Assembly (NCBI GenBank): GCA_030390025.1
Contig: CM059431.1
Location: 149,918,001-149,982,000 of the forward strand
Origin: Squalus acanthias
Taxonomy: Eukaryota
Direction of reading: 5' to 3'
DNA length: 64,000 nucleotides
In this document: positions 2,391-29,339 of the stretch, one piece after another
How positions within the stretch are numbered: position 1 is the stretch's first letter
Layout: each line of letters begins with the position of its first letter
The notes under the pieces: model-generated
Databases searched by the model: none
Told to the model about the DNA's origin: nothing
What the model saw: only the letters and a program-made list of their open reading frames with translations
Made by a program: the position numbers and the translations under genes

Positions 2391-2430
2391 ATTACATTTA
2401 AAATGCATTTTTTGAGAAATTTTCCAATAG

Positions 2431-2926
2431 TGCAGGGAATCGAATCTTCATTACTGAGCCTGCCTCCCGCAGTTTAACAGGGCAGTTTACCTGATCTACA
2501 TTTCTTAGAGTTGTCCAGTCAGTGAGTTGATGATTGAAGTCACATTGATTGAATTGTTGGATTGCGTTGAGTGATCATCCTCAATATCGCTATTTAAATA
2601 TATTAACCATGAGTGGGAATAGTGTCTCACGCTGCTGTGCCCACCTGACTGGCACTAATAGGATCATGTAATTTGAGCGTCTCAGTGCAGGTTTCCTTTG
2701 TTTGCAATTCAGGCAAAAGTCAAGCGAACAGCAGCTACTCCAGGAACAGAAATCAGCACTTCTCACAGAAAGTGCGGGCATATTTAATCGTTTTTAGGAC
2801 CAAACATGATTTCTACCTTATGTGTCAACCTGTGTGATCAGTGAGTGTTTCAGCATAGTCCCTAACAGTGTAAATATTTATTCCACGGCATGTCTGCTTT
2901 TCCTCCGTCTGTTTGAGGATTCAGCC
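2431..2926 (+). repeat. Non-satellite cassette copy 1 (3'-truncated, unique left flank)
   Basis: Starts TGCAGGGAATCGAATCTTCATTACTGAGCC and is homologous to copies 2-6. Confidence 0.9.
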
Positions 2927-5900
2927 TGCGCCCATCCTGCTCTGTGTGTGGTTCTCGGTATCACACCGGGTGTGAACAGGGAAGACACCAAAGGACAGGA
3001 CATATCCTGGGCTCTTCTTGCTCTGTGTGCGGGGCACAGTCTTTCTCCAAATGAGAACAACTGACATACAACAGGTGAGAGAATGCTCCTGGGCATTTAC
3101 CGCACTCTGTGGAGCTCAGTGCCACACCGAATGAGAACAACTGATGTACCACAGGCCAAGAATGGAGCCTGACACCTTCCAGCTCTGTGTGGGGCTCAGT
3201 CCCTCACTGAATGAGAATAACTAACATACCACAGGCCGAGAATGGAGCCTAACCCCTTCCAGCTCTGTGTGGGGCTGAGTCCCTCACTGAATGAGAATAA
3301 CTAACATATCACTGGACGTCAATGTAACCTGTGCACATCGCTCGCCTTGTGTGGGGATCAGTACCTCAACAAATGAGAACCACTCTCCTACCAAAGGCCG
3401 GGAATTGAGACTGGGCCCATCCTGCTCTATGTGGGTCTCAGTCCCACACAGGTTGTGATCAGCTAACACAACACAGGCCGTGGAATGATCCTGGGCCCAA
3501 ACTACACAGTGTGGGGCTCAGTACCACACAGGTTTTGATCAGCTAACACACCACAGGCCGTGGAATTATCCTGGGCCTATCCTGCTCTGTGTGGGGCTCA
3601 GTACCACACAGGTTGTGATCAGCTAACACACCACAGGCCGTGGAATTATCCTGGTCCTATCCTGCTCTGTGTGGGGCTCAGTACCACACTGCGTGAGATC
3701 AGCTAACACATCACAGGCCGTGGAATTATCCTGGGCCCATCTTGCACTGTGTGGGGCTCAGTACCACACTGCGTGAGATCGTTTCACACACCACAGGCTG
3801 TGGAGTGTTACTGGCACAAACCTGCACTGTGTGGGGCTCAGTACAACACCGGGTGAGAGCTGTTCACTCAGCACAATTCGGGGATGGAGCCGGGGTCCTT
3901 CCTGCTCAGTGTGTGACTCTGTACCACATGAGGGAGATCAGCTAACACAGGACAGGCCGGTATGGATCCTGCATCCTTCCTGCTCTGTGGGGCTGAGCAC
4001 TACATCCCTTCAGATCTGTTAACAGAGCATGGGCCTTTCCTGCTCTATATTTGGTGATCAGTACCTCACCGAATGAGAACAACTGGTATACCAATGGCCG
4101 GGAATGGAAACAGGCCCATTCCAGCTTTGTGTGGGCTCAGTATCACACTTTGTGATATCAAGGAAAACACCACAGGAAAGGGATTGATCCTGGGCCCTTC
4201 CTGCACAGTGTGTGGGGCTCAGTAACTCACTGAATTAGAATATCTGACCAATCACAGGCAGGGAATGGATCCTGGGCCTTTCCTGCACTGTGTGGAGCTC
4301 AGTTACTCAACAAAAGAGAATAACAGACTTACCACAGTCCGGGGGTGATCAGTTAACACAGGACAGGCCGGGATGGATCCTGCCTTTTTCCTTTTCTGTG
4401 GGGCTGAGCACTGCACTGGTTCAGAAATGTAAACGGAGCCTGGGCCTTGCCTGTTCAATACCTTGCTGAATGAGAACAACTGATATACCACAGGCCTGGA
4501 ATGGTGCCTGGGTCCTTCCTGCTCTGTGTTTGCGGCCCAGTACCTCACGGAATGTGAACAACTAGCATACTACAGGCCGGTAATGGAGTCTGGGACCTTC
4601 CTGTTCTGTGTTTGCGGCTCAGTACATCACGGAATGTGAGCAACTTACATACTACAAGCCGGGAAAGGAGCCTGGGCCCAATCCTGCTCTGTGTGTGGTG
4701 CTCAGTATCTCAACGGGTGAGATCCGGAAAAAAAAACAGAGGAGAGGGAATGATGTTGGGCCCTTCCTGCGCTGCGTGGAGCTCAGTACGTCACCGAATG
4801 AGAATAACAACACATAACACAGGGCGGGAATGGAGCCTGAGCCAATCCTGCGTGGAGCGATCTTCAATAACACACTGAGTGATATCAGCTAAAACATCAC
4901 AATCACTGGAATGATCCTGGGCCCATTGTGGTCTGTGTGGTGCTCAGTACCACACCGGGTAATATCAGCTAACACATCACCAGCACTGGGATGATCCTGG
5001 CCCCAACCTGCTCGGTGTTGACTCAGTACCAAACTGGGCGAGATCAACTAGCACACTGCAGGCGGTGGAATGATCCTGGTCCCATCCTGCTCAATGAGGT
5101 GCTCAGCACCAAACTGGGCGAGATCAACTTGCACACTGCAGGCGGTGGAATGATCCTGGGCCCGTCCTGCTCTATGTGGTGCTCAGTTCCAAACTGGGCG
5201 AGATCAACTAGCACACTGCAGGTGGTGGAATGATCCTGGGCCCATCCTGCTCAGTGTGGTGCTCAGTACCACAATGGGTGCTGTCATCTAACACACCACA
5301 GGCCGTGGAATGATCCTGGGCCCAACCTGCTCTTTGTGGGGCTCAGTACCACATTGGGTGAGATCAGCTAACACACCACAGACCGAAGAATGATCCTGGG
5401 CCCATCCTGCTCAGTGTGGGGCACAGTACCACACTGGGTGAGATCAGCTAACAGACCACAGACCGTGGAATGATCCTGGGCTCAACCTGCTCTGTGTGGG
5501 GCTCAGTACTACGCCGGTTGAGATCAGCTAACACACCACAGACCGTGGAAATATTCTGGGCCTATCCTGCTCTATGTGTGGTGCACCGTGCAACACTGAA
5601 TAAGAACGACTGATATACCACAGGCCGGGAATGGAGCCAGGCCCCTTCTTGCACTGTGTGGAGCTCAGTACCTCACCGGATGAGGATAAAAGACATACCA
5701 ATGGTCGGGAATGGAGCCTGGGTCCTCCATTCTCTCTGTGTGTGCGCAATACCTCACCGAATACGATTAAGAGACATACCACAGTCCGGAAATGGAGCCT
5801 TGACTGTTCATACCATGTGTGTGTGTCTAAGTACCTCACCGACTGAGAACAGCTGACATACCACATCCCGGGACTGCAGCCTGGGACTTCCCTTCTCACT

Positions 5901-8900
5901 GTGTGGGGCTCAGTACCTCACTGAATGAGAATAACAGACATACCACAGTCCGAGAAAGGAGCCTTGACGGTTCTTATTCTCTCTGTAGTGCTCAGGACCT
6001 CACCGAATGATAACAACTAAAATACCACAGGCCGGAAATTGCACCTGGGCCCATCCTGCTGTGTGTGTTGAGCTCTGTTCCGCACCAAATGAGAATACCT
6101 TATACACCACAGGCCGGTATTGGATCCTGGACCCTTCCTGCTCCGTGTGTGATGCTCAACCCCACGGAATGTGAACAACTAACATACCTTAGAACGGGAA
6201 AGGATCCTGGGCCCATCTTTCTCTGTGTGTGGGGCTCAGTACCTCACCGATTGAGAATGACTGACACACTACAGGCCGGGAATGGAGCCTGGGCCCTACC
6301 TGCTCTGTGTGTGGGGCTCCGTAACTCACCAGGTGAGATCAGGAAAAATACCACAGTACAGGGAATGATCCTGGGCCCTTCCTGCACTGTGTGCAGCTCA
6401 GTCCCTCGCCGACTGAGAATAGCAGACATAACGCAGACCAGGAATGGAGCCTGGGCTCTTCCTGCTCTCTGGGTGGGGCTCAGTAACTCACCGAATGAGA
6501 ATAACTGGCATACCACAGGTCGAAAATGAAGCCAGTGGCCTCACTTCTCACTGTGTTGTGCTCATTACCTCACCGAATAAGAATAGCAGACATACCACTG
6601 GCCGGGAATGGGGCCTAGGCCCTACCTTCTCTCTGTTTGGCGCTCAGTATCTCACCAACTGACAAGAACTGACATACCACAGGCCGAGATTACAGCCTGG
6701 AGCCTCCCTTATCACTATGTGGGGCTCTGTACCTCACCGAATGAGAATTATAGACATACCACAGGCCGAGAATGGAGTCTTGACGCTTCCTACCTCTGTG
6801 TAGGGCTCAATACCTTACCGAATGAGAACAACTAAAATACCACAGGCCGGAAATTGCAACTGGGCCCTTCATGCTCTGTGTTTGGGGCTCTGTTCCTCAC
6901 CAAATAAGATTACATTGCACAACACCGGCCGGTAATGGATCATGTGCCCTTCCTACACTGTGTGTGATGCTCAGTGCCCCACGGAATGTGAACAACTAAC
7001 ATACCACAGGCCGGGAAAGGTGCTTGGGCCCATCTTTCTCTGTGTGTGGGGTTCAGTACCTCGCCGAATTAGAATAACTGACACACTACATGCCGGGAAT
7101 GGAGCCTAGGCCCTTTCTGCTCTGTGTGTGATGCTCAGTGCCCCACGGAATGTGGACAACTAACATAGCACAAGCCGGGAGTGGAACCTGGGCGCTTTCT
7201 GCTCGCTGTGTGGGACTCAGTAACTCAACAGGTGAAATCAGGAAAAGCACCACAGGACAGCGAATGGATCCTGGGCCCTTCCTGCTCTGTGTGTGATGTT
7301 CAGTACCCCACGGAATGTGGACAACTAACATACCACAGGCCGGGAATGGTGCCTGGGCCCATCTTTCTCTTTGTCTGGGGCTCAGTACCTCGCCGAATTA
7401 GAGTAACTGACACACTACATTCCGGGAATGGAGCCTAGGCCCTTTCTGCTCTGTGTGTGGGACTCAGTATCTCACCAGGTGAGATCAGGAAAACACCATA
7501 GGACAGGGAATGATCCTGGGCCGGTCCTGCGCTGTGTGTGGGGCTCAGTACCTCACCGAATGAGAATACCAGACATGCCACATGCCGGGAATGGAGCCTG
7601 GAATCGTCCTGCTCTGTGATTGACTGCGTAACCAATTTGGGGAGATCAGTTAACAGAGGATGGGCCGGGATGGATCCTGCGTCTATTATGTTCTGTAGGG
7701 CTGAGCTCAACACAGGTTCAGATTACTTTACAGAGCATGGGCCATTCTTGCTCTGTCTGTGGGGCTCAGTTAACCACCGAATGAGAATAACTGACACACC
7801 ACAGGCCGGTATGGATCTTAGGCCCTTCCTGCTCTGTTTGTGGGGCTCAGTACCTCACCGAATGAGAATAACTGACAAACCACAGGCCGGGATTAGAGCC
7901 TGGGCACATCATGCTCTGTGTGTATGGCTCAGTACGTCACCGAATGAGAATAACTTACACACCACATGCCGGTATGGAGCCTGGGCCATTCCTGCTCTCT
8001 GTTTGGAGATGAATATCTCACCGAATGAGAATAACTGACATACCTCAGCCCGGGAATGGAGCCTGGGCCCTTCCTGCTCTGTGTGTGGGGCTCAGTACCT
8101 CACTCAATGAGAACAACTGAAATACCTGAGCCCGGGAATGGAGCCTGGGCACATCATGCTCTGTGTGTGTTGCTCAGTAAGTCACCTAATGAGAGTACAT
8201 GACATACCTCAGCCCGGGAATGGAGCCTGCACCCTTCCTGCTCTCTGTGTGGGGCTCAGTACCACAACGAATGAGAACAACTGACATACCACAGGCCGGA
8301 GGTGGAACCTGGGCTCTTCCTCTGCTGTGTGTGGTGCTCAGTATCACTCCGATTGAGAACAACTGACATAGCACTGATCGGGAATGGAGCCTGGGACCTT
8401 CCTGCGCTGTGTGTGGGGCTCCGTACCTCACGGGATGTAAACAACTAACATAGTAAAGGCAAGGAATGGAGCCTGGGCCCATCCTGCTCTGTGTATGGGG
8501 TTCATACCTGCTCTATTTGTGTTGCTCATTATCACACCGGGTGAGATCACGCAAAACATAACAGGACAGGGAATGATCCTGGGCACTTCCTGCACTGTGT
8601 TAAGCTCAGTACCTCACTGAATACGAATAACAGACGGAACTCAGGCTGGCAATGGAGCCTGGGCCCTTCCTGCTCTGTATGTGGGGCTCAGTACCACACC
8701 GAATGTGAACTGACATACCATAGCCAGAAATGGAGCCTGGTTCCATGTTGCTCTATGTGGGGTTGAGTACCACACTGGGTGATATCAGAAAACACACCAA
8801 GAGCACTGGAATTATCTTGGGTCCATGCCGTGGAATGATCCTGGGCCTATCCTGCACTTTGTGTGGCGCTCAGTACCTCACTGAATGATAACAAAAGAAC

Positions 8901-9168
8901 TACCAAAGGCGGGGAATGGAGACTGGGTCCTTCCATCTTTGTGTGATGCTCAGTTCCTTACCAAATGAGAACGACTAAGATACCACAGGAGAGGACAATG
9001 CTGCTGGACACTTGCTGCTCTGTGTGTGGGGCACAGTCCATCTCCTAATGAGAATAACAGATATACCACAGGACAGGGAATTATCCTGGGCTCTACCTTC
9101 TCACTGGGTGGGGCTCAGAATCTCACCGAATGAGAACAACTGGAATACCACTGCCTGGGAATGGAGCC

Positions 9169-9765
9169 AGTACTACAGATAATCGAATCTTCATTACTGA
9201 GCCTGACTCCCGCAGTTAAAATGGTCAGTTTACCAGTCATAGTCTGATCTAGTTTCTTAGTGGTGTGCAGTCATTGAAGTGCATTTGATTGAATTGTTGG
9301 ATTGCTTTGAGTGTTCATCCTCAATATCTCCATTTAAATATATTAACCATGAGTGGGAATAGTGTCTCACGCTGCTGTGCCCACCTGACTGGCACTAATA
9401 GGATCATGTAATTTGAGCGTCTCAGTGCAGGTTTCCTTTGTTTGCAAATCAGGCATCCAGTAAAGCGAACAGCAGCTACTCCAAGAACAGAAATCACAAC
9501 TTCTCAAAGAAAGTGCGGAAACATTTAATCGCTATTGGGACCGAGGATGTTTTCTGCCTTACGCCGTCAACCTGTGTGGTCAGTGAATGCTTCTGTCCAG
9601 TCCCTAACAGTGTAAATATATATTTCACGGTATGAATGCTGTTCCTCCGTGTTTTTGAGGAATCAGCCCCATTGTTCTGAAATGTTTCTTACACAGGTGG
9701 CTGTTTTGTGATGTCAGTGCCAAGAATGCCATGCTTTTACCTTTTATTATTTATTCAATGTGATT
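9169..9765 (+). repeat. Non-satellite cassette copy 2 (3'-truncated)
   Basis: AATCGAATCTTCATTACTGAGCC...TTTAAATATATTAACCATGAGTGGGAATAG...ACACAGGTGGCTG. Confidence 0.9.
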
Positions 9766-12700
9766 TTGATTACATACACACCACAGGCCGGGGAATGTTT
9801 CTTGGCCCATGCTAATCTGTATGGGGCTCACTACCACGCTGGATGACGTCTGCTAGCAAACCACGGGTCTGGGAATGATCATGGGCCCATCCTGCTTTGT
9901 GTGGGGCTATGTACCACACTGGGTGGGATCAGCCATCCCACCACAAGCCGGTGAGTTGTTCTGGACCCCTCCTGCTCTGTGTAGGTCTCAGTACCACACT
10001 GGGTGAAATCTGCTAGCACAAGAATCCGGTGTATTGATCCTTCTCCCGTCCTGCTCTGTGCGGGGCCCAGTACCACACTGGGTGTGATCAGCTAAAACCG
10101 TGAATGCTCCTCGGCCTATCCTGCACTGCGTGTGGGGCTCACTGTGTGAGAACAGCTCACTCAGCACTGGCCTGGATCGATCCTGCCTCTTTCTTGTTGT
10201 GTGGGGCTGAGCACGACAACTGATCAGATCTGTTAAGAGAGCCTTGGCCATTTCTGCTCTGTGTGGTGGCCAGTACCTCACTGAATGAGAATAACTAACA
10301 TACCACAGTCCGGCAAGGAGTCTGGGCCCATCCTGCACTGTGTTGGGCTCAGTACTAAACTGGGTACGATCAGCTAACCCGCCACTGGATGCAGAATTAT
10401 CCTATGATCATCCTGGTCTGTGTGGGGCTCTGTACCTAACCGGCAGATATCAGCTAACAGACGACAGTCCGTAGAATAATCCTGGTCCCAACGTGCACAG
10501 TATGGGGCACAGCACCTCATCTAATGAGATTAACTGACATACCACAGGCCGGGAATTTGAGCCTGGGCACTTCCTGCTTTGTGTGAGTGCCTCAGTACCT
10601 CACCGAATGAGGATGACAAACATAGCACATGCCGGGAATGGAGCCTGGGCCCTTCCTACTCTCTGCGTGTGCCTCAGTACCTCACCGAATGAGAACAACT
10701 TACATACCCGAGGCCGGGAATGGAGCCTGGGCCATTCCTTCTCTCCGGGTGCAGATCAGTACCTGACCAACTGTGAACAACTGACATACCACAGACCGGG
10801 AATGGAGCCTGGGTCCTTTTTGCTCTGTGTGTGGTACTCAGTTCCTCACCAAATGAGATTAATTGACACACCACAGGATAGGGAATGGAGCCTGGGCCCT
10901 TCCTTCAGTACCTCTCGCAATGTGAACAACTAACATACTACAGGCCCGGAATGTAGCCTGGGCACATCCTGTTTCGTGTGTGGGGCTCAGTACCTTACCG
11001 AATGAGAATTACTGACATACCACAGGCCGTGAATGGAACTTGCGCTCTTCGTTCTTTCTGGGTGAGGCTCAGTATCACACCGTGTGAGATCAGAAAACAA
11101 AACACAGGTCAGGGAATGATCCTAAGCCCTTGTTGTTCTGAAATCGTGGCACAGTCCACCTCCAAATGAGATTAACTGACACATCACAGGATAGGGAATG
11201 ATTCTGGGCCCTCCCTGCACTGTGTGGAGCTCAGCACCTCACAGAATGAGAATAACAGACATAAAACAGGCCGGGAATGAAGCCTGGGCTCTTCCTTTTC
11301 TCTTTGCGGGCCTCAGTACTTCACCGAATGAGAACAACTGACATACCACAGGCCGGGAATGGAGCCTTGGCATTTCCTGCTCTGTGTGGGGCTCAGTCCC
11401 TAACTGAATGAGAAGAACTAACATACCACAGGCCGGGAATGGCGCCTGGGCACTTCCTTTGCTGTGTGTGGCGCTCAGTACCTCTGCGAATGAGAGCAAC
11501 AGATATAGCGCAAGCCAAGAATGGAGCCTGGGCACTTCCTTTGCTGTTTGTGGGGCTCAGTACCTCACTGGATGGGAACAACTGACATACCACAGGCCGG
11601 GAATGGTGCCTGTGCCGTTCCTGCTCTGTGGAGGGCTCAGTAGCTCATCAAATGAGAATAAATGACACACCACAGGCCTAGAATGTTGCCTGGGCCCTTC
11701 CTGCTCTGTGTAGGGCTCAGTACCTCACTGGATGGGAACAAATGACATACCAGATTCCGGGAATGGTGCTTGACCCGTCCTTCGTGTGTGGGCCTCAGTT
11801 CCTCATCGACGGTGATCAACTGACATACCACAGACCGGGAAGGGAGCCAGCACCCTTATTTCGCTGTGTTTGGGGCTCAGTACCGCATCAAATGAGAATA
11901 ACTGCATACCACAGTCTGGGAATGGAGCCTGGGTTCATCCTGCTCTTTCCGGGCTCAGTACCACAACGGGTAAAATTTGCGAACACACCAAATCGGTGGA
12001 ATGATCCAGAGCACAACCTGCTCTGTGTAGGGCTCAGTACCACAGCGGGTTTGATCAGCTAAAGCACCACATGCCGGGGATTGCTCCTGGGACTATCTTG
12101 CACTGTGTGTGGGGCTCTGTTGCACATTCTGCGGGAGCAGCTCACTCAACACAAGCCAGGGATGGAGCCTGGTATCTTCCTGCTCGTTGTGTGACTCGGT
12201 ACCACACGGGAGAGATCAGTTAACACAGGACAGGCCGGATTAGATCCTGAATCTTTTCTGCACTGTGGTGTGGAGCATTACACCGGTTCAGATCTGTTAA
12301 CAGAGCCTGGGCCATTCCTGCTCTGTGTTTGGGTCTCAGTACCTCACCGAATGAGAACAACTGATATAACACAGGCCGGGAATGGAGACTGAGCACTTCC
12401 TGCTCAGCGGGTGGTGCTCAGTACCTCACGGGATGTGAACAACGAACATAGTACAGTCCGGGAATGAAGCCTGGGCCCTTCCTGCGCAGTGGGTGGGGCT
12501 CAGTACCTCACCGAATGTGAACAACTGACTTACTACAGGCTGGGAATGGAGCCTGGGCCCAGCCTGTTCTGTATATGGGGCTCAGTACCTCATAGAATGA
12601 GAATAACTGACACACCACAGGTCGGGAATGAGCCTGGGCCCTAACCTGCTCTATTTGTGCTGCTCAGTATCACACCGGGTGAGATCAGGCAAAACACCAC

Positions 12701-13053
12701 AGAACAGGGAATGATCCTGGGCCCTTCCTGCACTGTATGAAGCTCAGTACCTTACCGAATGTGAATAACAGACATAACACCTGCTGGTAATGGAGCCTGG
12801 GACTATCCTGCACTTTTTGTGGAGCTCAGTACCTCACCAAATGTGAATAACAGACATAACACCGGCTGCCAATGGAGCCTGGCCCAATCCTGCTCTGTAT
12901 GTGGGGTTCAGTATCACACTGAATGATGACAACAGAAATACCTCAGGCGGGGAATGGAGACTGGGTCCTTCCATCTTTGTGAGGGGCTCAGTTCCTTACC
13001 AAATGAGAACAACTAAGATAACACAGGAGAGGGCATGATGCTGGACACTTGCT

Positions 13054-13700
13054 CACCTGAATGCCACTAATAGGATCAGGTAATTTGAGCTTCTCAGTGT
13101 AGGATTCTTTTGTGTGCAAATCAGGCATCCAATCAAGCGAACAGCAGCCACTCCAAGAAGAACAGAAATCATCACTTCTCACAGAAAGTGCGAGCATATT
13201 TAATCGTTATTAGGAGCGAAGATGATTTCTACCTTACACCGTCAACCTGTGCGGTGAGTGAGTATTTCTGGACAGTCCCTAACTGTGTAAATATGTATTC
13301 CACGATATGCCGGCTTCTCTCCCATCTGCTTGAGGATTCAGCCCCATTGTCCTGAGCTGTTTCTTACACAGGTGGCTGTGTAGTGATGTCAGTGCCGAGA
13401 ATGCCGTGCTTTAACCTTTTTAATATTCAATGTGATTGCTTTATTCAGACTGGAATATTATTTGAATCTGTGGCATCAGTAAGGCAATCGGGTTAATGTT
13501 TTCATCCAACAATTAATGATCCCTGAATCAGGCCGAGCTCACGCACCACTTTCGAGCAATGGCTACCTTTATGATTTGTCGTTGAGTTAATTGATACTGG
13601 AGCAGTTTCTGGGTGTTGGGTCAGTTTACAGATGTTGTGTTAAATCCAGACATCAGGTGAGATACGATAGTTCAGCATAGATCAGAGAGGAGGCCTGGAA
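13054..13700 (+). repeat. Non-satellite cassette copy 3 (5'-truncated)
   Basis: Begins at CACCTGAATGCCACTAATAGGATC and runs to GATAGTTCAGCATAG. Confidence 0.9.
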
Positions 13701-14635
13701 CTGCTCTGTTCTTTGTGGCTCAGTATCTCACCGGGCCATGGAATGATCCTGAGCCTATCCTGCACTGTGTGGTGCTCAGTACCACATCGGGTGAGATTAG
13801 CTAACACATCACAGGCCGTGGGATAATCCTGGCCACACCCTGAACTGTGTGGTGCTCAGTACCACACTGATTGATACCTGCTAACACAGGACAGGCCGTG
13901 GGATGATCCTGGGCACATCCTGCACTGTGAGGTGCTCAGTACCACACAGGTTGATACCTGCTAACAAACCACAGGCCGTGGGATGATCCTGGGCACATCC
14001 TGCACTGTGTGGTGCTCAGTACCACACTGGTTGTTACATGCTAACACACCACAGGCCGTGGGTTGATCCTGGGCGCATCCTGCTCTTTGTGGGGCTCAGT
14101 ACCACACTGGGTGAGATCAGCTACCACATCACAGACCGTGGAATGATCCTGGGCACATCCTGCTCTGTGTAAGGCTCAGTACCTCACTGGGTGAGAACTG
14201 CTAACACACCGCAAGTCGTGGAATGATCCTGGGCCTATCCTGCACTGTGTGGGGCTCAGTATCACACTGGGTGAGTACAGCTACCACATCACATGCCGTG
14301 GAATGATCCTGGGCCTATCCTCCTCTTTGTGTGGGGCTCAGTACCACACTGAATGAGAACAACAGAAATACCATAGGCCGGTAATGGAGACTGGATCCTT
14401 GAAGCTTTGTGTGGGGCTCAGTTCCTTACCAAATGAGAACAACTAAGATACCACAGGAGAGGGCATGATGCTGGTCACTTGCTGCTCTGTGTGCGGGGCA
14501 CAGTCCAGCTCCAAATGAGAATAACAGATATACCACAGGACAGGGAATTATCCTGGGCACTGCCTTCTCACTGGGTGGGGCACAGTATCTCACCGAATGA
14601 GAACAACTGACATATCACGGGCCGGAAATGGAGCC

Positions 14636-15500
14636 ACTACTGCAGGGAATCGAATCTTCATTACTGAGCCTGCCTCCCGCAGTTAAACGGATCAGTTAAC
14701 CTGTCATAGTCTGATCTACGTTTCTTAGCGGTGTCCAGTCATTGAAGTGCCATTGATTGAATTGTTGGATTGCTTTGAGTGTTCATCCTCAGTATCTCTT
14801 TTTAAATATATTAACCATGAGTGGGAATAGTGTCTCGCGCTGCTGTGCCCACCTGACTGGCATTAATAGGATCATGTAATTTGAACGTCTCAGAGCAGGT
14901 TTCCTTTGTTTGCAAATCAGTCATCCACTCAAGGGAACAGCACCTACTCCAAGAACAGAAATCACCACTTCTCACAGAAAGTGCGGGCATATTTAATCGT
15001 TATTTGGACCGAACATGATTTCTAACTTACGCCGTTAAACTCTGTGGTCAGCGATTGTTTCTGGACAGTCCCTAACTGTGTAAATATGTATTGCACGGTA
15101 TGCTTGCTTTTCTCCCGTCTGTTTGAGGATTCAACCGCATTGTTCTGAGCTGTTTCTTACACAGGTGGCTGATTAGTGATGTCAGTGCCGAGAATGCCGT
15201 GCTTTTATCTTTTACTTTTTATTACATGTGATTGCGTTATATAGGCTGGAATATTCTTTAAATCTCTGGCATGAGTAATGTAATCGGGTTATAGCTTTCT
15301 TCCTAGAATGAATGATACTTGAATTAGGCCGAGCACTGGCATCACTTTCGGGCAATGGCTACCTTTAAGGTTTCTGGTTGAGTTAATTGATACTGGAGCA
15401 GTTTCTGGGTGATGGGTCAGTTTACATGTGTTGTGTTAGGCCCAGACAGCAGGATAGATGCGATAGTTCAGCATAGACCAGAGAGGATGCCTGGAACTGT
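14636..15500 (+). repeat. Non-satellite cassette copy 4 (full, ~0.87 kb)
   Basis: Same colinear sequence, entered through GGAGCC|ACTACTGCAGGGAATCG. Confidence 0.9.
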
Positions 15501-18500: not shown

Positions 18501-19339
18501 TCACACACCACAGCACTAGAATGATCCTGGGCCCATCCTGCTCTCCCTACTGCGCAGTACCACAACGGGTGAGATCAGCGAACACACCACAAGCTTAGGA
18601 TAATCCTATGCTCATACTGCTCTGTCTGTGTCTTGATACCGCGCTGGCCGAGATGAGATAACACACCACAGTCATTGGAATGATCCTCTGCCCATCCTGC
18701 TCTGTGTGGGGCTCAGCACCACGCCGGGTGAGATCAGCTAACAGATTACAGACCGTGGAATGATCCTGGGCCTATCCTGTACTATGTGTGGGGCTCAGTA
18801 CCACACTGAATGAGTACAACAGAAACTCGACAGGCCTTGAATGGAGAATGGGTCCTTCCTGCTCTGTATGTGGCCTCATTTCCTCCTCAAATGAGAACAA
18901 CTAACATATCACAGGCCTGGAATGGAGTCTTGACACATCCTGCTCTGTGTGTGGTGCTCAGTATCACAACGGGTGATAGCAGCTAACATACCACAGGGGA
19001 AAGTGGACGCACCTGGGCGCTTGCTGCTCTGTGTGCGGGTCACAGTCCATCTCCAAATGGGAAGAACTGACACACCACAGGACAGAGAATGATCGTGGGC
19101 CCTTCCTGCACTGTGTGAAGCTGACTACATTACCGAATGAGAATAACAGACATACCACAGGCAGGGAATGCAACCTTGATCCTTTCTTCTCACATGGTGG
19201 GGTTGAGTACCTCACGTAATGAGAACATCTGACATACCACATGCCGGGAATGATACCTTGGGCTTTCCTTCTCTGTGAGTGGGGCTCAGTACCTCACAAA
19301 ATGAGAAAAACTGAAATACAACAGGCTGGGAATGGAACC

Positions 19340-20205
19340 AGTAATACAGAGAATCGAATATTCATTACTGAGCCTGCCTCCCACAGTTAATCAGGTCAGT
19401 TTACCTGTCATAGTCTGATCTACATTTCTTAGGGTTGTCTAGTCAGGGACTTTTATAATTGAAGTTAAATTGATTGAAATGTTTCATTGCATTGTGTGTT
19501 CATCCTCAATATCTCTATTTAAATATATTAACCATGACTGGGAATAGTGTCTGACGCTGCTGTGCCCACCTGACTGGCACTAATAGGATCAGGTAATTTG
19601 AGTGACTCAGAGCAAGTTTCCTTTGTTTGCAAATCAGGCATCCAGTCAAGCGAACAGCAGCTACTCCAAGAACAGAAATCACCACTTCTCACAGGAAGTG
19701 CGGGCTTATTTAGTCATATTTAGAAGATGATGTAGACATTACGCCGTCAACTTGTGTGTTCAGTGACTGTTTCTGGACAGTCCCAAACTGTGTAAATATT
19801 TCTTCCACCGTGTGACTGCTTTTCTGCCGTCTGTTTGAGGATTCAGCCACATTGTTCTGAGCTGTTTCTTATACAGGTGGCTGTTTAGTGATGTCAGTGC
19901 CGAGAATGCCGTGTTTTTATATTTTAATATTTATTCCATGTGATTGCTTTATTCAGACTGGACCATTCTTTGAATCTCTGGCATCAATAATGTAATCGGG
20001 TTAATGTTTTCATCCAACAATTAATGATCCCTAAATCAGGCTGAGCATCGCATCACTTTCCTGAATTGGCTACCTTTAATGTTTCCGCTTGAGTTAATTG
20101 ATACTGGAGCAGTTTCTGGGTGATGGGTCAGTTTATAGGTGTTATGTTCGGTCCAGACAGCAGGTGAGATGCGATAGTTCAGCATAGATCCGAGATGATG
20201 CCTAG
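19340..20205 (+). repeat. Non-satellite cassette copy 5 (full)
   Basis: Same colinear sequence and same entry junction. Confidence 0.9.
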
Positions 20206-22987
20206 AACTGTCTTGTTCTTTGTGGCTAAGTAACTCACCAGGCCATGGAATTAACCTATTCCCATCCTGCTTTGTGTGGGGCTCAGCAACACATCGGTGA
20301 GATCAGCTAACCCACCACAGGCCGTGGAATGATCGTAGGCCCATCCTGCTCTGTGTGTGGCTCAGTACCACATTGGTTTCTTTCAGATAACCCACCAAAG
20401 ACCGGTTAATGTTTCTGGGCCCATCCTGCTCTGGGTGGGGCTCAGTACCAAACCGGCTGAAATCTACTTACACACCAATTCGCTGGATTGATCCTGAGCC
20501 CATCCTGCACTGTGTGTTGCTCAGTACCACACTGGGTTTGTTCAGCTAAACAACAGAGTCCAGGGAATGCTCCTGGGCCTATCCTGCACTGTGTGTGGGG
20601 CTCACTTGGTTAGAGCAGCTCTCTCAGCACAGGCCGGAATGGATCCTGCCTCTTTCCTCCTGTGTGGGGCTGAGCACTCTCTTGGTTGAGATCTGTTAAC
20701 AGAGCCTGGGCTATTCCTACGCTGTGTGTTGGTCCAGGTTCCTCACCAAATGAGAATAACTGACATACCACAGTTCGGGAATGGAGCCTGGGAGCATCCT
20801 GCTTTGTTTTTGGACCTCAGTCTCGCACCGGGTGAGTTCAGGGAAAACACCACAGGACAGGGAATGATCCTGGGGCATTCTGCTCTGTATATAGGGCACA
20901 GTCCAGCTCCAAATGAGAACAACTGACATGCCACAGGAGAGGGTTTGCTCCTGGGCCCATCGTCCCCTTTGTGTGGGGCTCATTATCACACCGTTTCAGA
21001 TCAGCTAACACACCACAGGACGGGGAATGATCCTGCGCCCTTTGTGCACTGTGTTGAGCTCAGTACTTCATCAAATGAGAATACAGACATTACTTAGGCC
21101 GGCAATTATCCTGGGGCCTCCCTTCTCTCTGGATTGGGTTCAGTATCTCACCAAATGAGAATACCCTACACAGCACAGGCCGGGAATGGAGCCTGGGCCT
21201 ATCCTGCACTCTGTGGGGCTCAGTACCACACCGGGCGCGATCAGCAACACACCGAAGGCCAGGGAAAGATCCTGGGCCCATCTTGCTCTGTGTGGGGCAC
21301 AGTACCACATAGAGTGAGTTCAGGAACCACACCACAGGCCTGGGAAAGGTCCTGGGCCTATCGTGCGCAGTTTGGTGCTCAATAGCACACTGGGTGTGAT
21401 CAGCTAATCAACCACAGGCCGGGGAATGATCCTGGGCAAATCCTGCTCAGTCTGGGGCCCAGTACCACACTGGGGGTATCAGCTGAACAGTTAAAGGCTG
21501 CGGAATGATCCTGGGCCCATCTTTCTCTGTGTGGGTCTCAATAGCACACCGAGTAAGCTTAGGAAACACACAACAGGCTTGGAAATGATCCTGGGCACAC
21601 CCTGATCTTTGTGAGGCTCAGTACCACACCGGTTGTGAACAGATAAAACACCATTGGCCGGGCAATGCTTCTGTACCTATCCTGCTCTATTTTTGTCTCA
21701 GTACTAAACTGACTGAGAGCAGCTCACTCAGCACAGGCCGGAGATGGAGCCTGGGATCTTCCTGCTCGGTGTTTGACTCGGTACCACACGCGGCACATCA
21801 GGTAAACAGGACAGGCCGGGATAGATCCTGCATATTTTCCCTGTTCTGTGGGGGTGAGCACTGCACCGATTCGGATCTGTTAACAGAGCCTGGGTCATTC
21901 CTGCTCTGTGTGTGAGGCCAGTACCTCACTGAATGAGAACGACTGATATACCACAGGCCGGGACTGGAACCTGGACCCATTTCTGCTCTGTGTGCAGTAC
22001 ACAGTAAATTACCGGGTGAGATCAGGGAAAACACCACAGAACAGGGAATGATCCTGGGTCCTCCATTCTCTCTGTGTGGTGCTCAGCACCTCATCGAATG
22101 AGAATAGTAGACATACCACAGGCCGGGAACGATGCCTTGACCCTTCATGCCCAGTGTGTGGGGCTCAGTACCTCATCGAATGAGAACAACTAATTGGAAA
22201 TTACGCCTGGGCCATTCCTGCTCTGTGTGTGACTGCCTACCACACAGGGGAGATCAGCTAACACAGGACAGACAGGTATAGATTCTGCACCTTTCCTGTA
22301 ATGTGGGGTTGAGCACTGCACCGGTTCAGAACTGTTAACAGATTCCGAGCACTTCCTGCTCTGTGTGGGGCTCAGTTACTCACCAATTGAGAACAACAGA
22401 ATACCACATGCCAGGAATGGAACCTGGGCATTTCGTCCTCTGTGTATGGGGTTCAGTTGCTCAACAAATGACAATAACTGGCACAGCAGAGGCCGGGAAT
22501 GTAACCTGGGCCAATCCAGCTCAGTGTGGTGCTCAGTACCACACCGGATGAGATCAGCTTACACATCAAAGGCTTGGAAATCATTCTCGGCCCATCCTGC
22601 TCTGTGTGGGGTTCCGTACCAAACTGGCTTATATCAGCTAACACCCCAACAGCACTGCAATGATCCCGGGCCCATCCTGCTCTGTGTGGTGCTCAGTACC
22701 ACACTGGGTGAGATCAGCTAACAGACCACAGGTCGTGGAATTATCCTGCGCCTATCCTGCACTGTGTGGTGCTCAGTTCCACACTGGGTGAGATCAGCTA
22801 ACAGACCACAGGTCGTGGAATGATCCTGGGCCTGTCCTGCACTGTGTGGTGCTCAGTTCCACACTGGGTGAGATCAGCTAACAGACCACAGGTCGTGGAA
22901 TTATCCTGGGCCTATCCTTCACTGTGTGTGGGGCTCAGTACCGCACTGAATGTGTCAATAGAAATACCACAGGGCGGGAATGGAGCC

Positions 22988-23855
22988 ACTACTGCAGGGA
23001 ATCGAATCTTCATTACTGAGCCAGCCTCCCGCACTTAAACAGGTCAGTTTACCTGTCATAGTTTGATCTACATTTCTTAGGGTTGTTCATTCAGGGAGTT
23101 TTATGATTGAAGTGACATTGATTGGATTGTTGGATTGCTTTGAATGTTCATCCTCAATATCTCTATTTAAATATATTAACCATGAATGGGAATATTGTCT
23201 CACGCTGGTGTGCCCACCTGACTGGCACTAATAGGATCATGTAATTTGAGCGTCTCAGCGCAGGTTTCCTTTGTTTGCAAATCAGGCACCAGTCAAGCGA
23301 ACAGCAGCTACTCCAAGAAGAACAGAAATCACCACTTCTCACAGAAAGTGCGGGCATATTTAATCGTTATTAGGACCGAAGATGATTTCTACCTTACGCC
23401 GTCAACCTGTGTGGTCAGTGATTCTTTCTGGAGAGTCCGTAACTGTGTAAATATGTAATCCACGGTAAGAATGCTTTCCCCCCGTCTGTTTGAGGATTCA
23501 GCCCCATTGTTCTGAAATGTTATTTACACAGGTGGCTGGTTAGTGATGTCAGTGCCGAGCTTTTACATTTTACCGTTTATTCAAGCTGATTGTTTTTTTC
23601 AGCCTAGAATATTCTTTGAATCTCAGGCATCAGTAATGTAATCGGGTTAATGTATTCATCCAACAACTAATGATCCCCGAATCAGGCTGATCACTGGCAT
23701 CACTTTCGGGCAATGGCTACCTTTAAGGTTTCTGGTTGAGTTAATATATTATGAAGCAGTTTCTGGGTGGTGGGTAACTTTACATGTGTTGTGTTAGGTC
23801 CAGACAGCATATGAGATGCGATAGTTCAGCATAGACCAGAGAGGATTCCTGGAAA
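22988..23855 (+). repeat. Non-satellite cassette copy 6 (full)
   Basis: Same colinear sequence and same entry junction. Confidence 0.9.
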
Positions 23856-24272
23856 TGTCCTGTTCTTTGTGACGCAGTAACTCACCGGGCCATGGAATGA
23901 TCTTGAGGGCATTCATGCTCTGTGTGGGACTCAGTACCACAATTGGTGCGATCAGCTAACCCACCACCGTCTGGGGAATGATCCTAGGCCCATACTGCTA
24001 TGTATGGGACTCAAAGCCACGCTGGTTGATATGTGCAAACACACGACTGCCCTGGGAATGATCCTAGGCCCATCCCATTCTTTGCGGGACTCAGTACCAC
24101 ACTGGTTGATATGTGCAAACACACGACTGCCCTGGGAATGATCCTAGGCCCATCCTGCTCTGTGTGAGGCTCAGTACCACACCGGGTCAGATCATCTATC
24201 ACACAACAGGCCGTGCAATGATTCTACGTCAATATTGCATCGTGTGGGACTCAGTCACATTGGTTGAGATTG

Positions 24273-24646
24273 TTTTTTTCATTCGTTCACGGAATGTGGG
24301 CGTATCTGGCAAGGCCAGCATTTATTGTCCATTCCTAATTGCCATTTCAGAGGGCAGTTAAGAGTCAACCACATTGCTGTGGATCTGGAGTCTCATATAG
24401 ACCAGACCAGGTTAGGATGGCAGATTTATTTCCCTGAAGGATATTATTGAACCAGATGGGTTTTTATGAAAATCTGTAAATTTTGTGGTCACCATTATAG
24501 TTATTAACTTTTTATTCCAGATGTATTAATTAACTGAATTTAAGTTTCACAGCTGCCATGGTGGAATTTGAACTCACGTCTCTGTGTCATTAGTCTAGGC
24601 CTCTGAATTACTAGTCCAGTAAAATAACCACTCTGAAACCGTTGCC
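24273..24646 (-). mobile_element. Full-length tRNA-derived SINE (~375 bp) inserted in a satellite monomer
   Basis: On the minus strand: A-box-like GGTTTCAGAGTGG, B-box-like GAGTTCAAATTCC, A-rich 3' end. It interrupts the monomer at GAGAT|...|GATATCAGCTA, a possible 5-bp imperfect TSD. Confidence 0.88.
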
Positions 24647-27600
24647 GATATCAGCTACCACACCACAGGCCAAGGAATATTTCTGGGCCCATCCTGCTCT
24701 AGGTGGGGCTCAGTAGGACACCGGGTGAAATCTGCTTACACACCAATTCGGTAGATTGATTCAGAGCCCATCCTGCTCTGTGTGGGGCTCAGTACCACAG
24801 TGGCTGTGAACAGCTAAGTCACCACAGGCCGGGGAATATTTCTCGGCCCATCCTGCTCTGAGTGGGGCTGAGTACCACAGCGGGTGAAATGTATTAACAC
24901 ACTGTTAACAATTCTGTGGGTTGATCCTCGGCCTATCCTGCACTGTGTGTGAGGCTCACTGTGTGAGATCAGCTCACTCAGCACAGGCCGGGATGGATCC
25001 TGCCTCTTTCCTGTTCTGTGGGGCTGAGTACTACTCCCGTTCTGTTCTTTTAAAATAACTAGACCATTCCTGTCCTGTTTGTGGGGACCAGTACCTCACC
25101 GAATGAGAACAACCGATAAACCACATGCCAGAAATGGAGCCTGGGCCCATCCTGCTCTGTGTGCGCGGCTCAGTATCACACCGGGTGAGATCAGGGAAAA
25201 CACCACAGGACAGGGAATGATCATGGGCCCTTGCTGCACTCTGTGGATCTCAGTACCTCACCGAATGAGAATAACAGACATACCACAGGTTGGGAATGTA
25301 GACTGGGCTCTTCCTAATCTGTGTGTGGGTAATAGTACCTTAACGACTGAAAACAACTGACACATAACAGGCCGGGAATGGAGCCTGGGGCCAACCTGCT
25401 CTGTGTGTGGTTGATTACCACACCGCGTGCAATCGGGAACAAAGCACAGGCTGTGGGATGATCCAGGGCCCATCCTGCTCCCTGTGGCGGACAGTACCAT
25501 ACCGTGTCAGATTAGCTAACACACCACAGGCCCAGATGGATCCTGCATCATTCCTGTTCTGTGCGGCTGAGCATTACACCAGTTCAGATCTGTTAACAGA
25601 GCCTGGGCCATTCCTGCTCTGTACGTGGGGATCAGTACCTCACCGAATGAGAACAACTGATATAGCACAGGTCGTTAATGGCGCCTGGGCCCATCGTTGT
25701 GTGTGTGTGTTGCTCAGTATCCCACCGGGTGAGACCAGGCAAATCACAACAGGCCAGGAGTGATCGTGGGCCCTTGCTGCACTGTGTGGAGCTCAGTACC
25801 ACACCGAATGAGAATAACTGACATCCCACAGGCTGGGAATGGAGCCTTGGTCTTTCCTGCTCTGTGTGAGGCTCAGCCCTCTCTGATTGACAACAACTAA
25901 CATACCAAAGGACAGCAATGGAGCCTGGGCTCATCCTGCTCTGTGTGTGGGTCTCCGGAACTCACCGAATGAGAATAACAGACATATCAAAGGCCAGGAA
26001 TGGCGCCTTGGTCCTTCCTGCTCTGTTTGTGGTGCTCTGTATCACACTGGTTGAGATCAGGGAAACCACCTCAGGACAGGGAATGGAGCATACGCCGTTC
26101 CTGCTCTGTTTGTAGGGCTCAGTTCCTCACCGAATGAGAATCACTGACATACCATCTGCCGGAAATGGAGCCTGGGCCCTTCCTGCTCTGTCTTTAAGTC
26201 TCAGTACCTCACCAAATGAGAATAAATGGCATACCACATGCCGGAAATGAAACCTAGGCCCTTTCTTCTCTATGTGTCGAGCTCAGTAACTCACCGAATG
26301 AGAATAAATGACATACCACCTTCCGGAAATGGAACCTGAGCACTTCCTGCTCTGTGTGTAGGCCTCAGTACCTCACTGAATGAGAATAACAGATATATCA
26401 CTAGCCGGAAATGGAGTCTGGGACCTTCCTGCTCTGTGTGTAGGGCTCACTACCTCATCGAATGAGAATAAATGACATACCACATGCCGGAAATGGAGCC
26501 TGGGACCTTCCTGCTCTGTCTGTAGGGCTCAGTAACTCACCGAATGAGAATAAATGACATACCACATGCCTTAACTGAAACCTGGGCCATTCCTGATCTG
26601 TGTGCAGCTCAGTCCCTCACCAAATGAGAATAACATATATACCACAGGCGGGGAATGGATCCTGGGCCCTTCCTGCTCTGTGTGGGGCTCAGTACCACAC
26701 CGACTGGGAACGACTGGCATACAATAGGCCAAAAAATGATCCTGAGCCTATCCAGCTTTGTGTGGGACTCAGTAGCACATTGGTGAGATCAGCTAACACA
26801 CCACAGGCCGCGGAATGTTCCTGGGCCCATCCACCTCTGTGTGGGGCTCAGTACTACACTGGGTGATATCTGCTAATGTACCACAGGCCTGTAATGATCT
26901 AGGTCCTCTAACTCTCTGTGGGACCCATTACCACACCGGTTAAGATCAGCTAACACAGAAAAGGCCCAAATGGACCCTGCTTCTTCCTGCTCTGTGGGGC
27001 TGAGCACTACAGCAGTTCAGAAGTATTACAAAGCCTGGGCCATTCCTGCTCTGTATGTGGGTTCAGTACATCACCGAATTACAACAACTGACATACCACA
27101 AGCCGGGAATGGAAAGTGGGCCCATCCTGCTCTGTGGGTGTTGGTCAGTATCACAACGGGTGGGATCAGGGAAAACACCAGACGCCAGGAACGATCCTGG
27201 GCCCTTGCTGCACTGTGTGGAGCTCAGTATCTCACCGAATGAGTATAAATGACATACCACAGGCCGGGAATGGAGCCTGGGCCCTTCCTGCTCTGTGTGG
27301 GGCTCAGTACCACAAACAAAAGTGACCAACTGACATACAACAGACCAAGAATGATCCTGAGCCCTTCCTGCACGATGTGCAGCACAGTATCTCACCGGAT
27401 GAGAATAACAGACAAACCACTATGAGAACAATTAACATAGAGCCTTGGCCCTTCCTGCTCTGTGTGGGCCTCAGCCCTCTCTAAATGAGAACAACTAACA
27501 TATAACACAACGGGAATGGAGCCTCTGCCCTTCCTGCTCTCTGTGTTTTGCTCAGTATCACACTGGTTGAGATCAGGGAAAGCACCACAGCACAGCGCAT

Positions 27601-28829
27601 GGAGCCTAGGACGTTCCATCACTCCGCGTGGGGCTCAGTAACTCAACGAATGAGAACAACGGACTTACTACAGGCCAAGAATGGAGCCTGGGCCCATCTT
27701 ACTCTGTGTGTGGGGCACAGTACCTCACCGAGTGAGAACAACATATATACATCAGGGCAGGAAAGAAGCCTGTCCCCTTCCTGCTCTGTGTGTGGTGCTC
27801 AGTTTCACATCTGGTGAGATCAGGGAAAACACCACAGGACAGAGAATGGAGCCGAGTCCCTTCCTGCTCAGTACCTCACCGAATGAGAATAAATGATATA
27901 TCAGATGCCGGAAATGGAGCTTGTGCCCTTCCCGCTCTGTGTTGGGCTCAGTACCTCACCGAATGAGAATAACTGAAAAACCACATGCCGGAAATAGAAC
28001 CGGGGCCATCCATCTCTTTGTGGGGCTCAGTACCACACCGGGTGTTTTCAGCTGACGCACCACAGGCCGTGGAATGATCCTGGGCCCATCCTGCACTGTG
28101 TGTTGGAAACAGATCCAAACCGGATGTTATCAGTAAACTCACCAAAGACCGGGGAATGATCCTGGGCCAATCCTGCACTGTGTGTGGGGCTCCATACCAC
28201 ACCGGGCGGGAGCAGCTCAATCAGCACAGTCCGGGGATAAGGCCTGCTATCTTCCTTCTCTGTGTGTGGGGCTCAGTTGCCCACCAAAGGATAACAACTA
28301 ACATTCCACGAGCCTGGGATGGAGCCAGGCCCATTCCTCTTCTGTGTGTGGGGCCAATACCTCACCAAATGAGAACAACAGAATTACCGCAGGACCCGAA
28401 TGGCACCCGGGCCCTTCGTCCTCTGTATTTGGGGCTCAGTTAATCAGCAAATGAAAATAACTGACACATCACAGGCCTTGAATGGAGCCTGGTGCAATCC
28501 TGCACTGTGTGGGGCTCAGTACCACACCGGGTGAGTTCAGGAAACACACCACAAGCCTTGGAATGATTCTGGGCCTATCCTGCTCAGTGTGGTACTCAGT
28601 AGCACACTGGGTGGGATCAGCTAACCCATCACAGACTTGGGAATAATCGTGGGCACATCCTGCTCAATGTGTGGCTCAGTTCCAGAATGGGGGGCATTAG
28701 CTAACACGCCACAGTCTGCGGAATGATCCTGGGCCCATTCTGCTCATTCCCACCCTGGGTGAGATCAGCAAACACAACACTGGCCTGGAAATGACCTGGG
28801 CGCTTTCCGCTCTGTGTGGTGATCATGAA

Positions 28830-29315
28830 TTGATCAGTTTCTGGGAACTGTGTCAATTTACATGTGCTGGGGTAAGTGTTGCTCATCGGTCTGTTTCTGT
28901 GTGCTGGGTCTGTTTATGTGTATTAGCGTTGATGAGTTCTACCTGATTAGTTTTTGGGAACTGTGCCATTTACATGGACAGGCTTAAGTGACGGAGACTT
29001 AGTCAGCTTCTGGGAACTGTGCCATTTACATGTGCTGGGTTAGTTGTTGTTCATTGGTCAATTTATCGGTGCGGGTTCAGCTTACACGTGTTCGGTTAGG
29101 ACATGGTCAATTGGTCAGTTTCTGGGTGAAGGGTCAGTTTACGTGTATTTGTTTAGGTGATGGTCAATTGGTCATATTCTGTGTGGTGGAAACAGTTTGC
29201 CTCTTTTCAGAAAAGTAATGGCCAACTGGTCAGTTTCCGGGAACTGGGTTATTTGCATAGGCTGACTTAAGTGATGGAGATTTGATCACTTTTTGGATGA
29301 TGGTTCATTTCCCCT
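28830..29315. repeat. ~56-bp degenerate minisatellite (~9 units)
   Basis: GGTCAGTTTCTGGG(AAC/TGA)...TTTACATGTG recurs at ~28834, 28888, 28947, 29002, 29057, 29113, 29170, 29228 and 29284. Confidence 0.75.
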
Positions 29316-29339
29316 TTACCAGAGGTTCTTCCTATTTCC

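What the first reader, a model, noticed from the sequence alone, without database searches (positions are those of the whole stretch)
2927..28830. 26-kb satellite apparently built from the B-box region of an AmnSINE2-like tRNA-SINE head
Seen: minus-strand monomers read GTACTGAGCC..ACACAGAGCAGGAAGGGCCCAGG[CT]TCCAT[T]CCCGGCCTGTG..GTTAGCTGATCTCA. The best-preserved unit (21711-21764) reads CAGGAAGATCCCAGGCTCCATCTCCGGCCTGTGCTGAGTGAGCTGCTCTCAGTC. From memory, the AmnSINE2 head contains CAGGAAGGTCCCAGGTTTGATCCCTGGTCTGTGCTGAGTTAGCTGATCTCAGCC, about 80% identical by eye. Inference: ~80 bp of an ancient SINE head, including its degenerate Pol III B box (GGTTCGATCC to GGCTCCAT[T]CC), was amplified several hundred-fold. 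It could act as a TFIIIC-binding array, an RNA source or a centromeric/heterochromatic satellite.
Basis: partly seen in the sequence, partly recalled or inferred. Interest (0 to 1): 0.7.

Follow-up and report, generated by a model that had tools for sequence, protein, structure and literature searches.

The report
Old satellite from a tRNA-SINE head
This is a real but decayed block of about 275 head-to-tail 80-base repeats, probably copied from the front part of a common short jumping element; the polymerase III signal it carried is broken, so it is most likely ordinary heterochromatin-type repeat DNA of a kind already described in reptiles.

Summary
The array is real: 275 monomer hits at 2915-28825, one orientation, two subtypes (80 and 82 bp), 68% mean pairwise identity. 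A tRNA-SINE-head origin is probable (about 0.7). A tRNA profile picks the B-box register (1 of 500 shuffles; a cruder test did not). There, 48 contigs leave the array in a variant form absent from the window, and one RNA(?) contig continues upstream into A-box-like letters. The name AmnSINE2 could not be tested: no reference was obtainable. The TFIIIC idea is weak: 4 of 195 monomers match the B-box consensus, and the box is no better conserved than the rest. It is too diverged for an active centromere. Verdict: a new member of a known kind (SINE-derived satellite, described in squamates), here in a shark-type genome. The scan had not logged this repeat, but had logged LINE-derived satellites in this genome. 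Unexplained: a 130-bp spacer block is unusually conserved.

The parts
1..197 (-). Three more monomers at the window's left edge; the array probably continues outside the window
   Evidence: nhmmer hits
198..2423 (.). Interrupting block with LINE-like 3' pieces (including a 98-bp tandem at 366-734); not part of the satellite
   Evidence: the CR1 label is recalled
2424..2914 (-). Spacer copy S1 (truncated); holds the conserved block at 2560-2689
2915..9171 (-). Monomer block U1, 77 hits, A-rich and B-rich runs, variant cassette at 3846-4140
9172..9768 (-). Spacer copy S2 (truncated); conserved block at 9300-9429
9769..13053 (-). Monomer block U2, 42 hits
13054..13650 (-). Spacer copy S3 (truncated at the other end; lacks most of the conserved block)
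13651..14635 (-). Monomer block U3, 13 hits, including a fairly uniform A run (84% TRF matches)
14636..15468 (-). Spacer copy S4 (full length); conserved block at 14768-14897
15469..19341 (-). Monomer block U4, 49 hits, with a long locally expanded B run
19342..20220 (-). Spacer copy S5 (full length; its boundary includes part of the terminal monomer); conserved block at 19485-19614
20221..22987 (-). Monomer block U5, 36 hits
21705..21784 (-).
   Evidence: depth spike and loose ends; control
22988..23810 (-). Spacer copy S6 (full length); conserved block at 23133-23262
23811..28825 (-). Monomer block U6, 58 hits; right-hand end of the array
24256..24646 (-). Later insertion of a SINE of another family (tRNA-like head; tail like the LINE 3' end at 39841-39911); unrelated to the monomer
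28826..29330 (-). Degenerate 56/57-bp tandem (about 8.6 copies) bounding the array; one piece of it recurs at the 5' end of the full spacers

Best explanation
An old, decaying composite satellite. About 80 bases from the 3' half of a tRNA-derived SINE head (from just downstream of the A box, through the B box, to about 25 bases past the tRNA-like part) were duplicated in tandem and amplified by unequal exchange (inferred). The monomers split into A and B subtypes and a few fixed variants (shown). A unit of monomers plus a 0.83-kb spacer was then duplicated head to tail at least six times (shown). Each copy gained or lost monomers locally, was truncated, or was hit by later retroelements (shown). 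The amplified piece left out the parent's A box, and its B box was altered early, since each subtype consensus carries its own fixed changes. The array is therefore most likely passive heterochromatin-type DNA, the worn part of a larger repeat family, and not a working polymerase III or TFIIIC element (inferred).
For: Array anatomy. Macro-unit duplication: spacers are 84-90% alike with a star-like tree. The same variant cassette recurs at 81-86% in other blocks. The same odd terminal monomer precedes 4 of 4 spacers with an intact 5' end. Local expansion: 76 of 195 nearest neighbours lie in the same block against 38 expected, and identity falls from 0.73 to 0.68 with distance. tRNA-like origin: a profile from 32 bacterial tRNA 3' halves scores the B consensus 9.3 bits at the B-box register (1 of 500 shuffles), like the inserted SINE's head used as positive control (8.6 bits, 0 of 500). 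Parent family: bin 21701-21767 has 63, 26 and 41 times the median depth in three DNA runs and 80% of all depth in the RNA(?) run, although only 13 of the other 194 window monomers resemble that unit as closely. 48 contigs leave it with loose ends of median 186 nt in a variant not found in the array. One RNA(?) contig continues upstream of a monomer start into letters with a tRNA D-loop/A-box pattern, and a 2371-nt RNA(?) contig is listed with one 52-nt match. Loss of promoter.
Against: No parent sequence was obtained. A crude 12-constraint T-arm test was not significant (832 of 2000 shuffles); the profile test was run second and with bacterial tRNAs. The A consensus scores only 1.2 bits (21 of 500). 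Rfam and ARAGORN find no tRNA match, though Rfam also misses the control SINE head. Part of the depth spike comes from tandem arrays of C-like units elsewhere (joints with 82-base period). The 48 loose ends agree poorly (0.49) and their consensus does not continue into the letters of the single A-box-like contig. No A-box-bearing leading unit is seen at the array's start. Contig depth is not a copy number. The conserved spacer block is not explained by pure decay.
Confidence: 0.68

Rival explanations
1. The monomer is not SINE-derived. It is a satellite of other origin with a chance T-arm-like stretch, and the abundant matching family is other arrays and scattered solo monomers of the same satellite.
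For: Crude T-arm test not significant; no Rfam tRNA hit; tandem C-like arrays exist elsewhere (joints); loose-end consensus becomes incoherent after about 23 letters.
Against: Profile score at the predicted register; long loose ends in a variant absent from the array; A-box-like upstream continuation in one contig.
Confidence: 0.14
2. The array works as a low-affinity TFIIIC or polymerase III platform. In A-type runs an Alu-like A-box 11-mer at the end of one monomer lies 55 bases before the B-like box of the next, so tandem duplication itself would have built a promoter across the junction.
For: 4 of 80 A monomers have a perfect and 38 a one-mismatch B box; 14 cross-junction pairs with at most one B mismatch against 3.6 in shuffles, 2 with a perfect B box, at 10094/10039 and 14123/14068. 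One 114-nt RNA(?) contig spans a monomer junction.
Against: The commonest A mismatch hits the conserved A of the box, and B monomers mostly have two or more mismatches (95 of 115 have two or three). No pair with a strict A box and a perfect B box. The A-like motif carries only about 9 bits, and repeats are not independent, so the shuffle excess means little. No extra conservation of the box. The RNA label is a guess, and only 1 of 46 laid records is 99% alike or more.
Confidence: 0.07
3. The real unit is the spacer: a multi-copy regulatory or mobile module (promoter or enhancer of a tandem family, an rDNA-spacer-like island, or a rolling-circle-type element that carries a tandem array), and the monomers are its cargo or enhancer repeats.
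For: A 130-bp block is more alike than the rest of the spacer in 10 of 10 pairs (90-97% against 84-89%); 8-23 of 2000 block permutations reach it. It holds an AT-rich TATA-like run. Contigs with high depth on the spacer suggest near-identical copies elsewhere in organisms A, B and C. A 28S rRNA fragment lies 19 kb away.
Against: No Rfam family, no ORF over 79 codons in the spacer consensus, no covariation (0 of 37 pairs), no homology between monomer and spacer. Three of six copies are truncated. Gene conversion or low local mutation could give the same block. The 28S piece is a decayed fragment.
Confidence: 0.09
4. Active centromeric satellite.
For: Tandem, one orientation, higher-order organisation; two monomers span about one nucleosome repeat (inference).
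Against: 68% pairwise identity, best pair 97.5%, spacers and retroelement insertions; no CENP-B-type box in the array (0; motif recalled). It could still be an old flank of such an array.
Confidence: 0.02

Closest known systems
SINE-derived satellites (sSat1-3) of squamate reptiles, PMC10702118 (read: parts 1, 3 and 4 of 5 of the text)
   Same: Tandem units shorter than the SINE (70-290 nt there, 80/82 here), taken from part of a tRNA-SINE, including head-covering units; up to hundreds of units per locus; several variants.
   Different: Other host lineage: the paper says it is uncertain whether such satellites occur outside squamates. Far more diverged here (68% pairwise; 81-88% reported for three variants there, up to 100% in long loci). 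Nested in a macro-unit with a 0.83-kb spacer. No extended SINE-like leading unit seen. The parent is inferred, not aligned.
Amphibian tRNA-related tandem families PolIII/TAN, OAX, Rana/polIII, Hy/polIII (seen only as described in PMC10702118 and PMC12054243)
   Same: Tandem repeats that carry a tRNA-like region.
   Different: Those units are longer (about 200-360 nt for the three with lengths given) and PolIII/TAN is transcribed in vitro; their SINE parents are unconfirmed. Here the unit lacks the parent's A box and has a broken B box.
AmnSINE2 (name seen in one passage of PMC6904449 as one of the oldest SINE subfamilies in the human genome; sequence not seen)
   Different: Untested. Any parent here would be a shark-type relative, not the amniote family itself.
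Shark SINEs SacSINE1 and CmiSINEs (PMC5499810, part 2 of 6 read) and UCON3-domain SINEs (PMC7245038, passages and supplement 1)
   Same: tRNA-headed SINEs are abundant in cartilaginous fishes (over 200,000 copies each in the elephant shark), so a parent pool is plausible.
   Different: The UCON3, Deu and Meta domains and hagfish heads printed in the supplement do not match the monomer by eye or by three motif searches. SacSINE1 and CmiSINE sequences were not readable.

Membership tests
SINE-derived satellite (sSat) | At least four tandem middle monomers at a locus | tested here: met
   275 hits in six blocks
SINE-derived satellite (sSat) | Unit shorter than a SINE, about 70-290 nt | tested here: met
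   80 and 82 bp
SINE-derived satellite (sSat) | Unit homologous to part of a dispersed SINE of the same genome | tested here: inconclusive
   Indirect support from the tRNA profile and from depth and loose ends; no full parent obtained; crude T-arm test negative
SINE-derived satellite (sSat) | Longer terminal unit running to a SINE end (usual, not universal) | tested here: inconclusive
   No A-box-bearing extension at the array start; a fixed odd terminal monomer precedes four spacers, but a 3' extension cannot be judged without the SINE body
SINE-derived satellite (sSat) | Long loci are homogeneous (a reported trend) | tested here: not met
   68% mean pairwise, 82-84% to own consensus
SINE-derived satellite (sSat) | Subtelomeric location (a reported trend) | not testable with these tools
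   No genome held
AmnSINE2 | Significant alignment to the Dfam/Repbase consensus | not testable with these tools
   No consensus in reach:
AmnSINE2 | Head continues into the family's body and tail | not testable with these tools
   Loose ends are shown to 30 letters only; none listed gave a coherent body
Type-2 polymerase III promoter or TFIIIC-only site | B box GWTCRAnnC (consensus from PMC4333407) | tested here: not met
   4 of 195 perfect, 46 with one mismatch; 0 of 195 match the longer form
Type-2 polymerase III promoter or TFIIIC-only site | A box TRGYnnAnnnG upstream at tRNA- or Alu-like spacing | tested here: not met
   0 pairs of strict A box with perfect B box; 2 pairs with the Alu-like form
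Type-2 polymerase III promoter or TFIIIC-only site | TFIIIC occupancy or Pol III transcript | not testable with these tools
   Only contigs were available
Active centromeric satellite | Long, homogeneous, uninterrupted array | tested here: not met
Active centromeric satellite | CENP-A occupancy | not testable with these tools
   No such data

The most novel reading that the evidence does not exclude
The spacer-plus-monomers macro-unit is a maintained multi-copy module in this lineage. A 130-bp spacer core under selection sits beside a SINE-head-derived array in which tandem duplication rebuilt a polymerase III promoter across monomer junctions (Alu-like A box 55 bases before the next unit's B-like box). 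The younger, near-identical copies elsewhere in the genome would then bind TFIIIC or make RNA, and this window would be their decayed edge.
Probability: 0.07. Interest if true: 0.72.

Novelty: new member of a known kind. Interest (0 to 1): 0.3.

Why it matters
If the SINE origin holds, it answers the open remark in PMC10702118 on whether SINE-derived satellites exist outside squamates, with a large, old example in a shark-type genome. It also shows a later stage of the process: subtype split, capture in a macro-unit, decay. That interests repeat specialists, but it is not a new mechanism, and transposon-derived satellites appear to be common in this genome. It would matter more only if the conserved spacer block or the cross-junction promoter proved functional.

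Tried and rejected
Searches for a parent SINE in public collections: viral contigs 0 and 5 hits, metagenomes 0 and 44 hits, prokaryote genomes 0 and 4 hits. All 53 hits were judged chance: none extends convincingly beyond the pattern. Full-text motif search of papers: 1 unrelated paper. My idea that UCON3 is the same element: its printed domain does not match. Rfam: no tRNA in 2000-29000, in the best unit, in the control SINE or in the spacer. ARAGORN: 0. Crude T-arm score: not significant. Coding role: 14 stop-to-stop frames of 110 codons or more in 1-29400, repeat-like, not searched further. RNA structure in the spacer block: no covariation. Expression: no RNA holder listed, and the spacer bins have no cover in the RNA(?) run; neither is evidence. 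Cross-species conservation: organisms B and C hold monomers and spacer, but their word share of 0.05 fits much smaller runs of close kin, so it gives no age. Earlier-finding look-ups by sequence or nearness: nothing in 5 of 5. No whole genome was held. Supplements of PMC5499810 and PMC5753468 could not be read; the first holds shark SINE alignments that could bear on the parent.

Full report
Observation. Tandem Repeats Finder reports periods of 80, 82 and multiples across 3050-28746. A profile built from 32 window monomers finds 278 hits at E 0.01 or better, all on the minus strand: 3 at 1-197, 275 at 2915-28825, none beyond. Hits cover 20,713 of the 25,911 bases of 2915-28825. Of the 278, 195 are near full length, and only these were used for alignment statistics. 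They fall into A (80 copies, 80 bp) and B (115 copies, 82 bp), 82-84% alike to their own consensus, 68% pairwise overall and 63% between subtypes. The quoted unit at 21711-21764 is there. By eye it agrees at 44 of 54 letters with the finding's recalled string, which remains unverified.

Six copies of a spacer (2424-2914, 9172-9768, 13054-13650, 14636-15468, 19342-20220, 22988-23810) divide the array into macro-units of 1.6-6.7 kb. They are 84-90% alike with a star-like tree; three are truncated. The junctions were copied with them. The same odd terminal monomer precedes the four spacers with an intact 5' end, and four of the five spacers with an intact 3' end run into a monomer cut at the B-like box. 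A cassette of variant monomers (3846-4140) recurs at 86, 83 and 81% in other blocks. Within blocks there was local expansion: 76 of 195 nearest neighbours are in the same block against 38 expected, and identity declines with distance. A SINE of another family is inserted at 24256-24646; its tail resembles a LINE end at 39841-39911 and it has no significant likeness to the monomer. The host is not given. The LINE-like pieces look elasmobranch-like by my recall, and earlier scan notes call this genome shark-like; neither is a test.

Is the monomer tRNA-derived? Rfam and ARAGORN find nothing, but Rfam also misses the inserted SINE's head, so the blank is weak. A crude T-arm score was not significant (832 of 2000 shuffles). 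A second test used a profile of variable loop, T arm and acceptor strand from 32 of 36 distinct bacterial tRNAs. This is modest support.

Is there a parent in the genome? I laid contigs of 4 of 11 listed runs on 21500-23500 at 80% likeness. The array itself does not explain this: 13 of the other 194 monomers resemble that unit over 45 columns at 80%, against 36-64 for near-consensus units that draw far less. The largest loose-end group listed (48 contigs, median 186 nt) leaves at 21764 and reads like the monomer's first part in a shorter variant that occurs nowhere in 2915-28825, then loses agreement. One RNA(?) contig continues upstream of the monomer start at 22941 into letters with a tRNA D-loop/A-box pattern, about 57-59 bases before the B-like box by my count. 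A 2371-nt RNA(?) contig is listed with one 52-nt match near one end. These fit a dispersed tRNA-headed family of which the monomer is the part downstream of the A box. Against: joints with an 82-base period show tandem C-like arrays elsewhere, which add to the spike; the A-box evidence is one contig; the 48 loose ends do not continue into the same letters; 24 loose-end rows were shown and 686 were not; depth is not a copy number. I put SINE-head origin near 0.7-0.8.

Is it AmnSINE2? Not testable. Two papers mention the name; the passage I read gives no sequence. Six collection scans gave only chance hits. A full-text motif search found one unrelated paper. The hagfish SINE supplements do not hold the motifs in a SINE context that I saw. 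The likeness rests on recall.

Function. With the consensus of PMC4333407 (passages), 4 of 195 monomers have a perfect B box in register and 46 have one mismatch; 95 of 115 B monomers have two or three. The box columns are no more conserved than the rest (0.85 against 0.84 in B, 0.82 against 0.82 in A). No strict A box pairs with a perfect B box. One curiosity: A monomers end in an Alu-like A-box 11-mer 55 bases before the next unit's B-like box; 2 such pairs have a perfect B box and 14 at most one mismatch. The motif is short and the copies are not independent, so this is a lead only. The divergence and interruptions argue against an active centromere. The likeliest state is passive, heterochromatin-type DNA; that step is inference, as no chromatin data were available.

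The unexplained part. In the spacer a block of about 130 bp (23133-23262 in S6) differs from consensus at 2.5% in its best 80 columns against 8.5% overall. 0 of 2000 column permutations and 8-23 of 2000 block permutations reach that, and it is more alike than the remainder in 10 of 10 pairs. It has no Rfam match, no covariation and no long ORF. Contigs with depth 33-49 on the spacer in organisms B and C, beside many at depth 2-6, hint at near-identical copies elsewhere. Constraint, conversion and low mutation rate cannot be told apart with six copies.

Comparison and novelty. It works like the SINE-derived satellites of squamates (PMC10702118; parts 1, 3 and 4 of 5 read) and meets their size and tandem criteria. 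Parent homology is inconclusive, and the homogeneity trend is not met. I saw no description of this repeat or of a shark SINE-derived satellite in nine literature searches (listings), or in passages of PMC10620051, PMC11406177, PMC12054243, PMC5753468 and PMC12801901 and part 2 of 6 of PMC5499810. The library lacks most subscription papers and Repbase, and two supplements were unreadable. Earlier scan notes list LINE-derived satellites in this genome (unchecked), which lowers the surprise. Verdict: observation partly confirmed, interpretation partly supported, new member of a known kind, interest 0.3.

Noticed in passing
window 23133-23262 and copies at 2560-2689, 9300-9429, 14768-14897, 19485-19614: A 130-bp block of the spacer is much better conserved than the rest; it holds a TATA-like AT run. 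An octamer-like word lies just outside it in four copies, and a CRE-like decamer elsewhere in four spacer copies (motif names recalled).
   Followed up: partly
window 24256-24646 (-): Near-complete SINE of another family inserted in the array; its tail is 75% like the LINE end at 39841-39911. No clear target-site duplication seen.
   Followed up: partly
window 48210-49101 (-): Decayed fragment of 28S rRNA with internal deletions (Rfam 409 bits), flanked by a piece of the 67-bp repeat and a LINE-like piece.
   Followed up: no
window 36497-37340 and 37456-38301: Inverted duplication of about 845 bp at 92% identity inside a LINE-like region; looks Penelope-like by recall, not confirmed.
   Followed up: partly
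window 29300-35050: About 4 kb of TC-rich then 1.7 kb of GA-rich low-complexity DNA, back to back with a sharp strand switch near 33300; more such tracts at 40.8-41.9, 46-48.2 and 59-64 kb.
   Followed up: no
window 50863-51126, 51124-52014, 52372-52677, 57366-59017: Further tandem families: 67 bp, 15 bp (twice) and 30 bp units. By recall the 67-bp unit resembles a shark SINE/LINE tail repeat; not tested.
   Followed up: no
window 28826-29330: Degenerate 56/57-bp tandem bounding the array; a piece of it recurs in the 5' end of the full spacers, so two satellites may be joined in the macro-unit.
   Followed up: partly
window 2915-28825: Changes from subtype consensus are 987 transitions to 1561 transversions, close to random expectation and unusual for vertebrate neutral DNA.
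   Followed up: no
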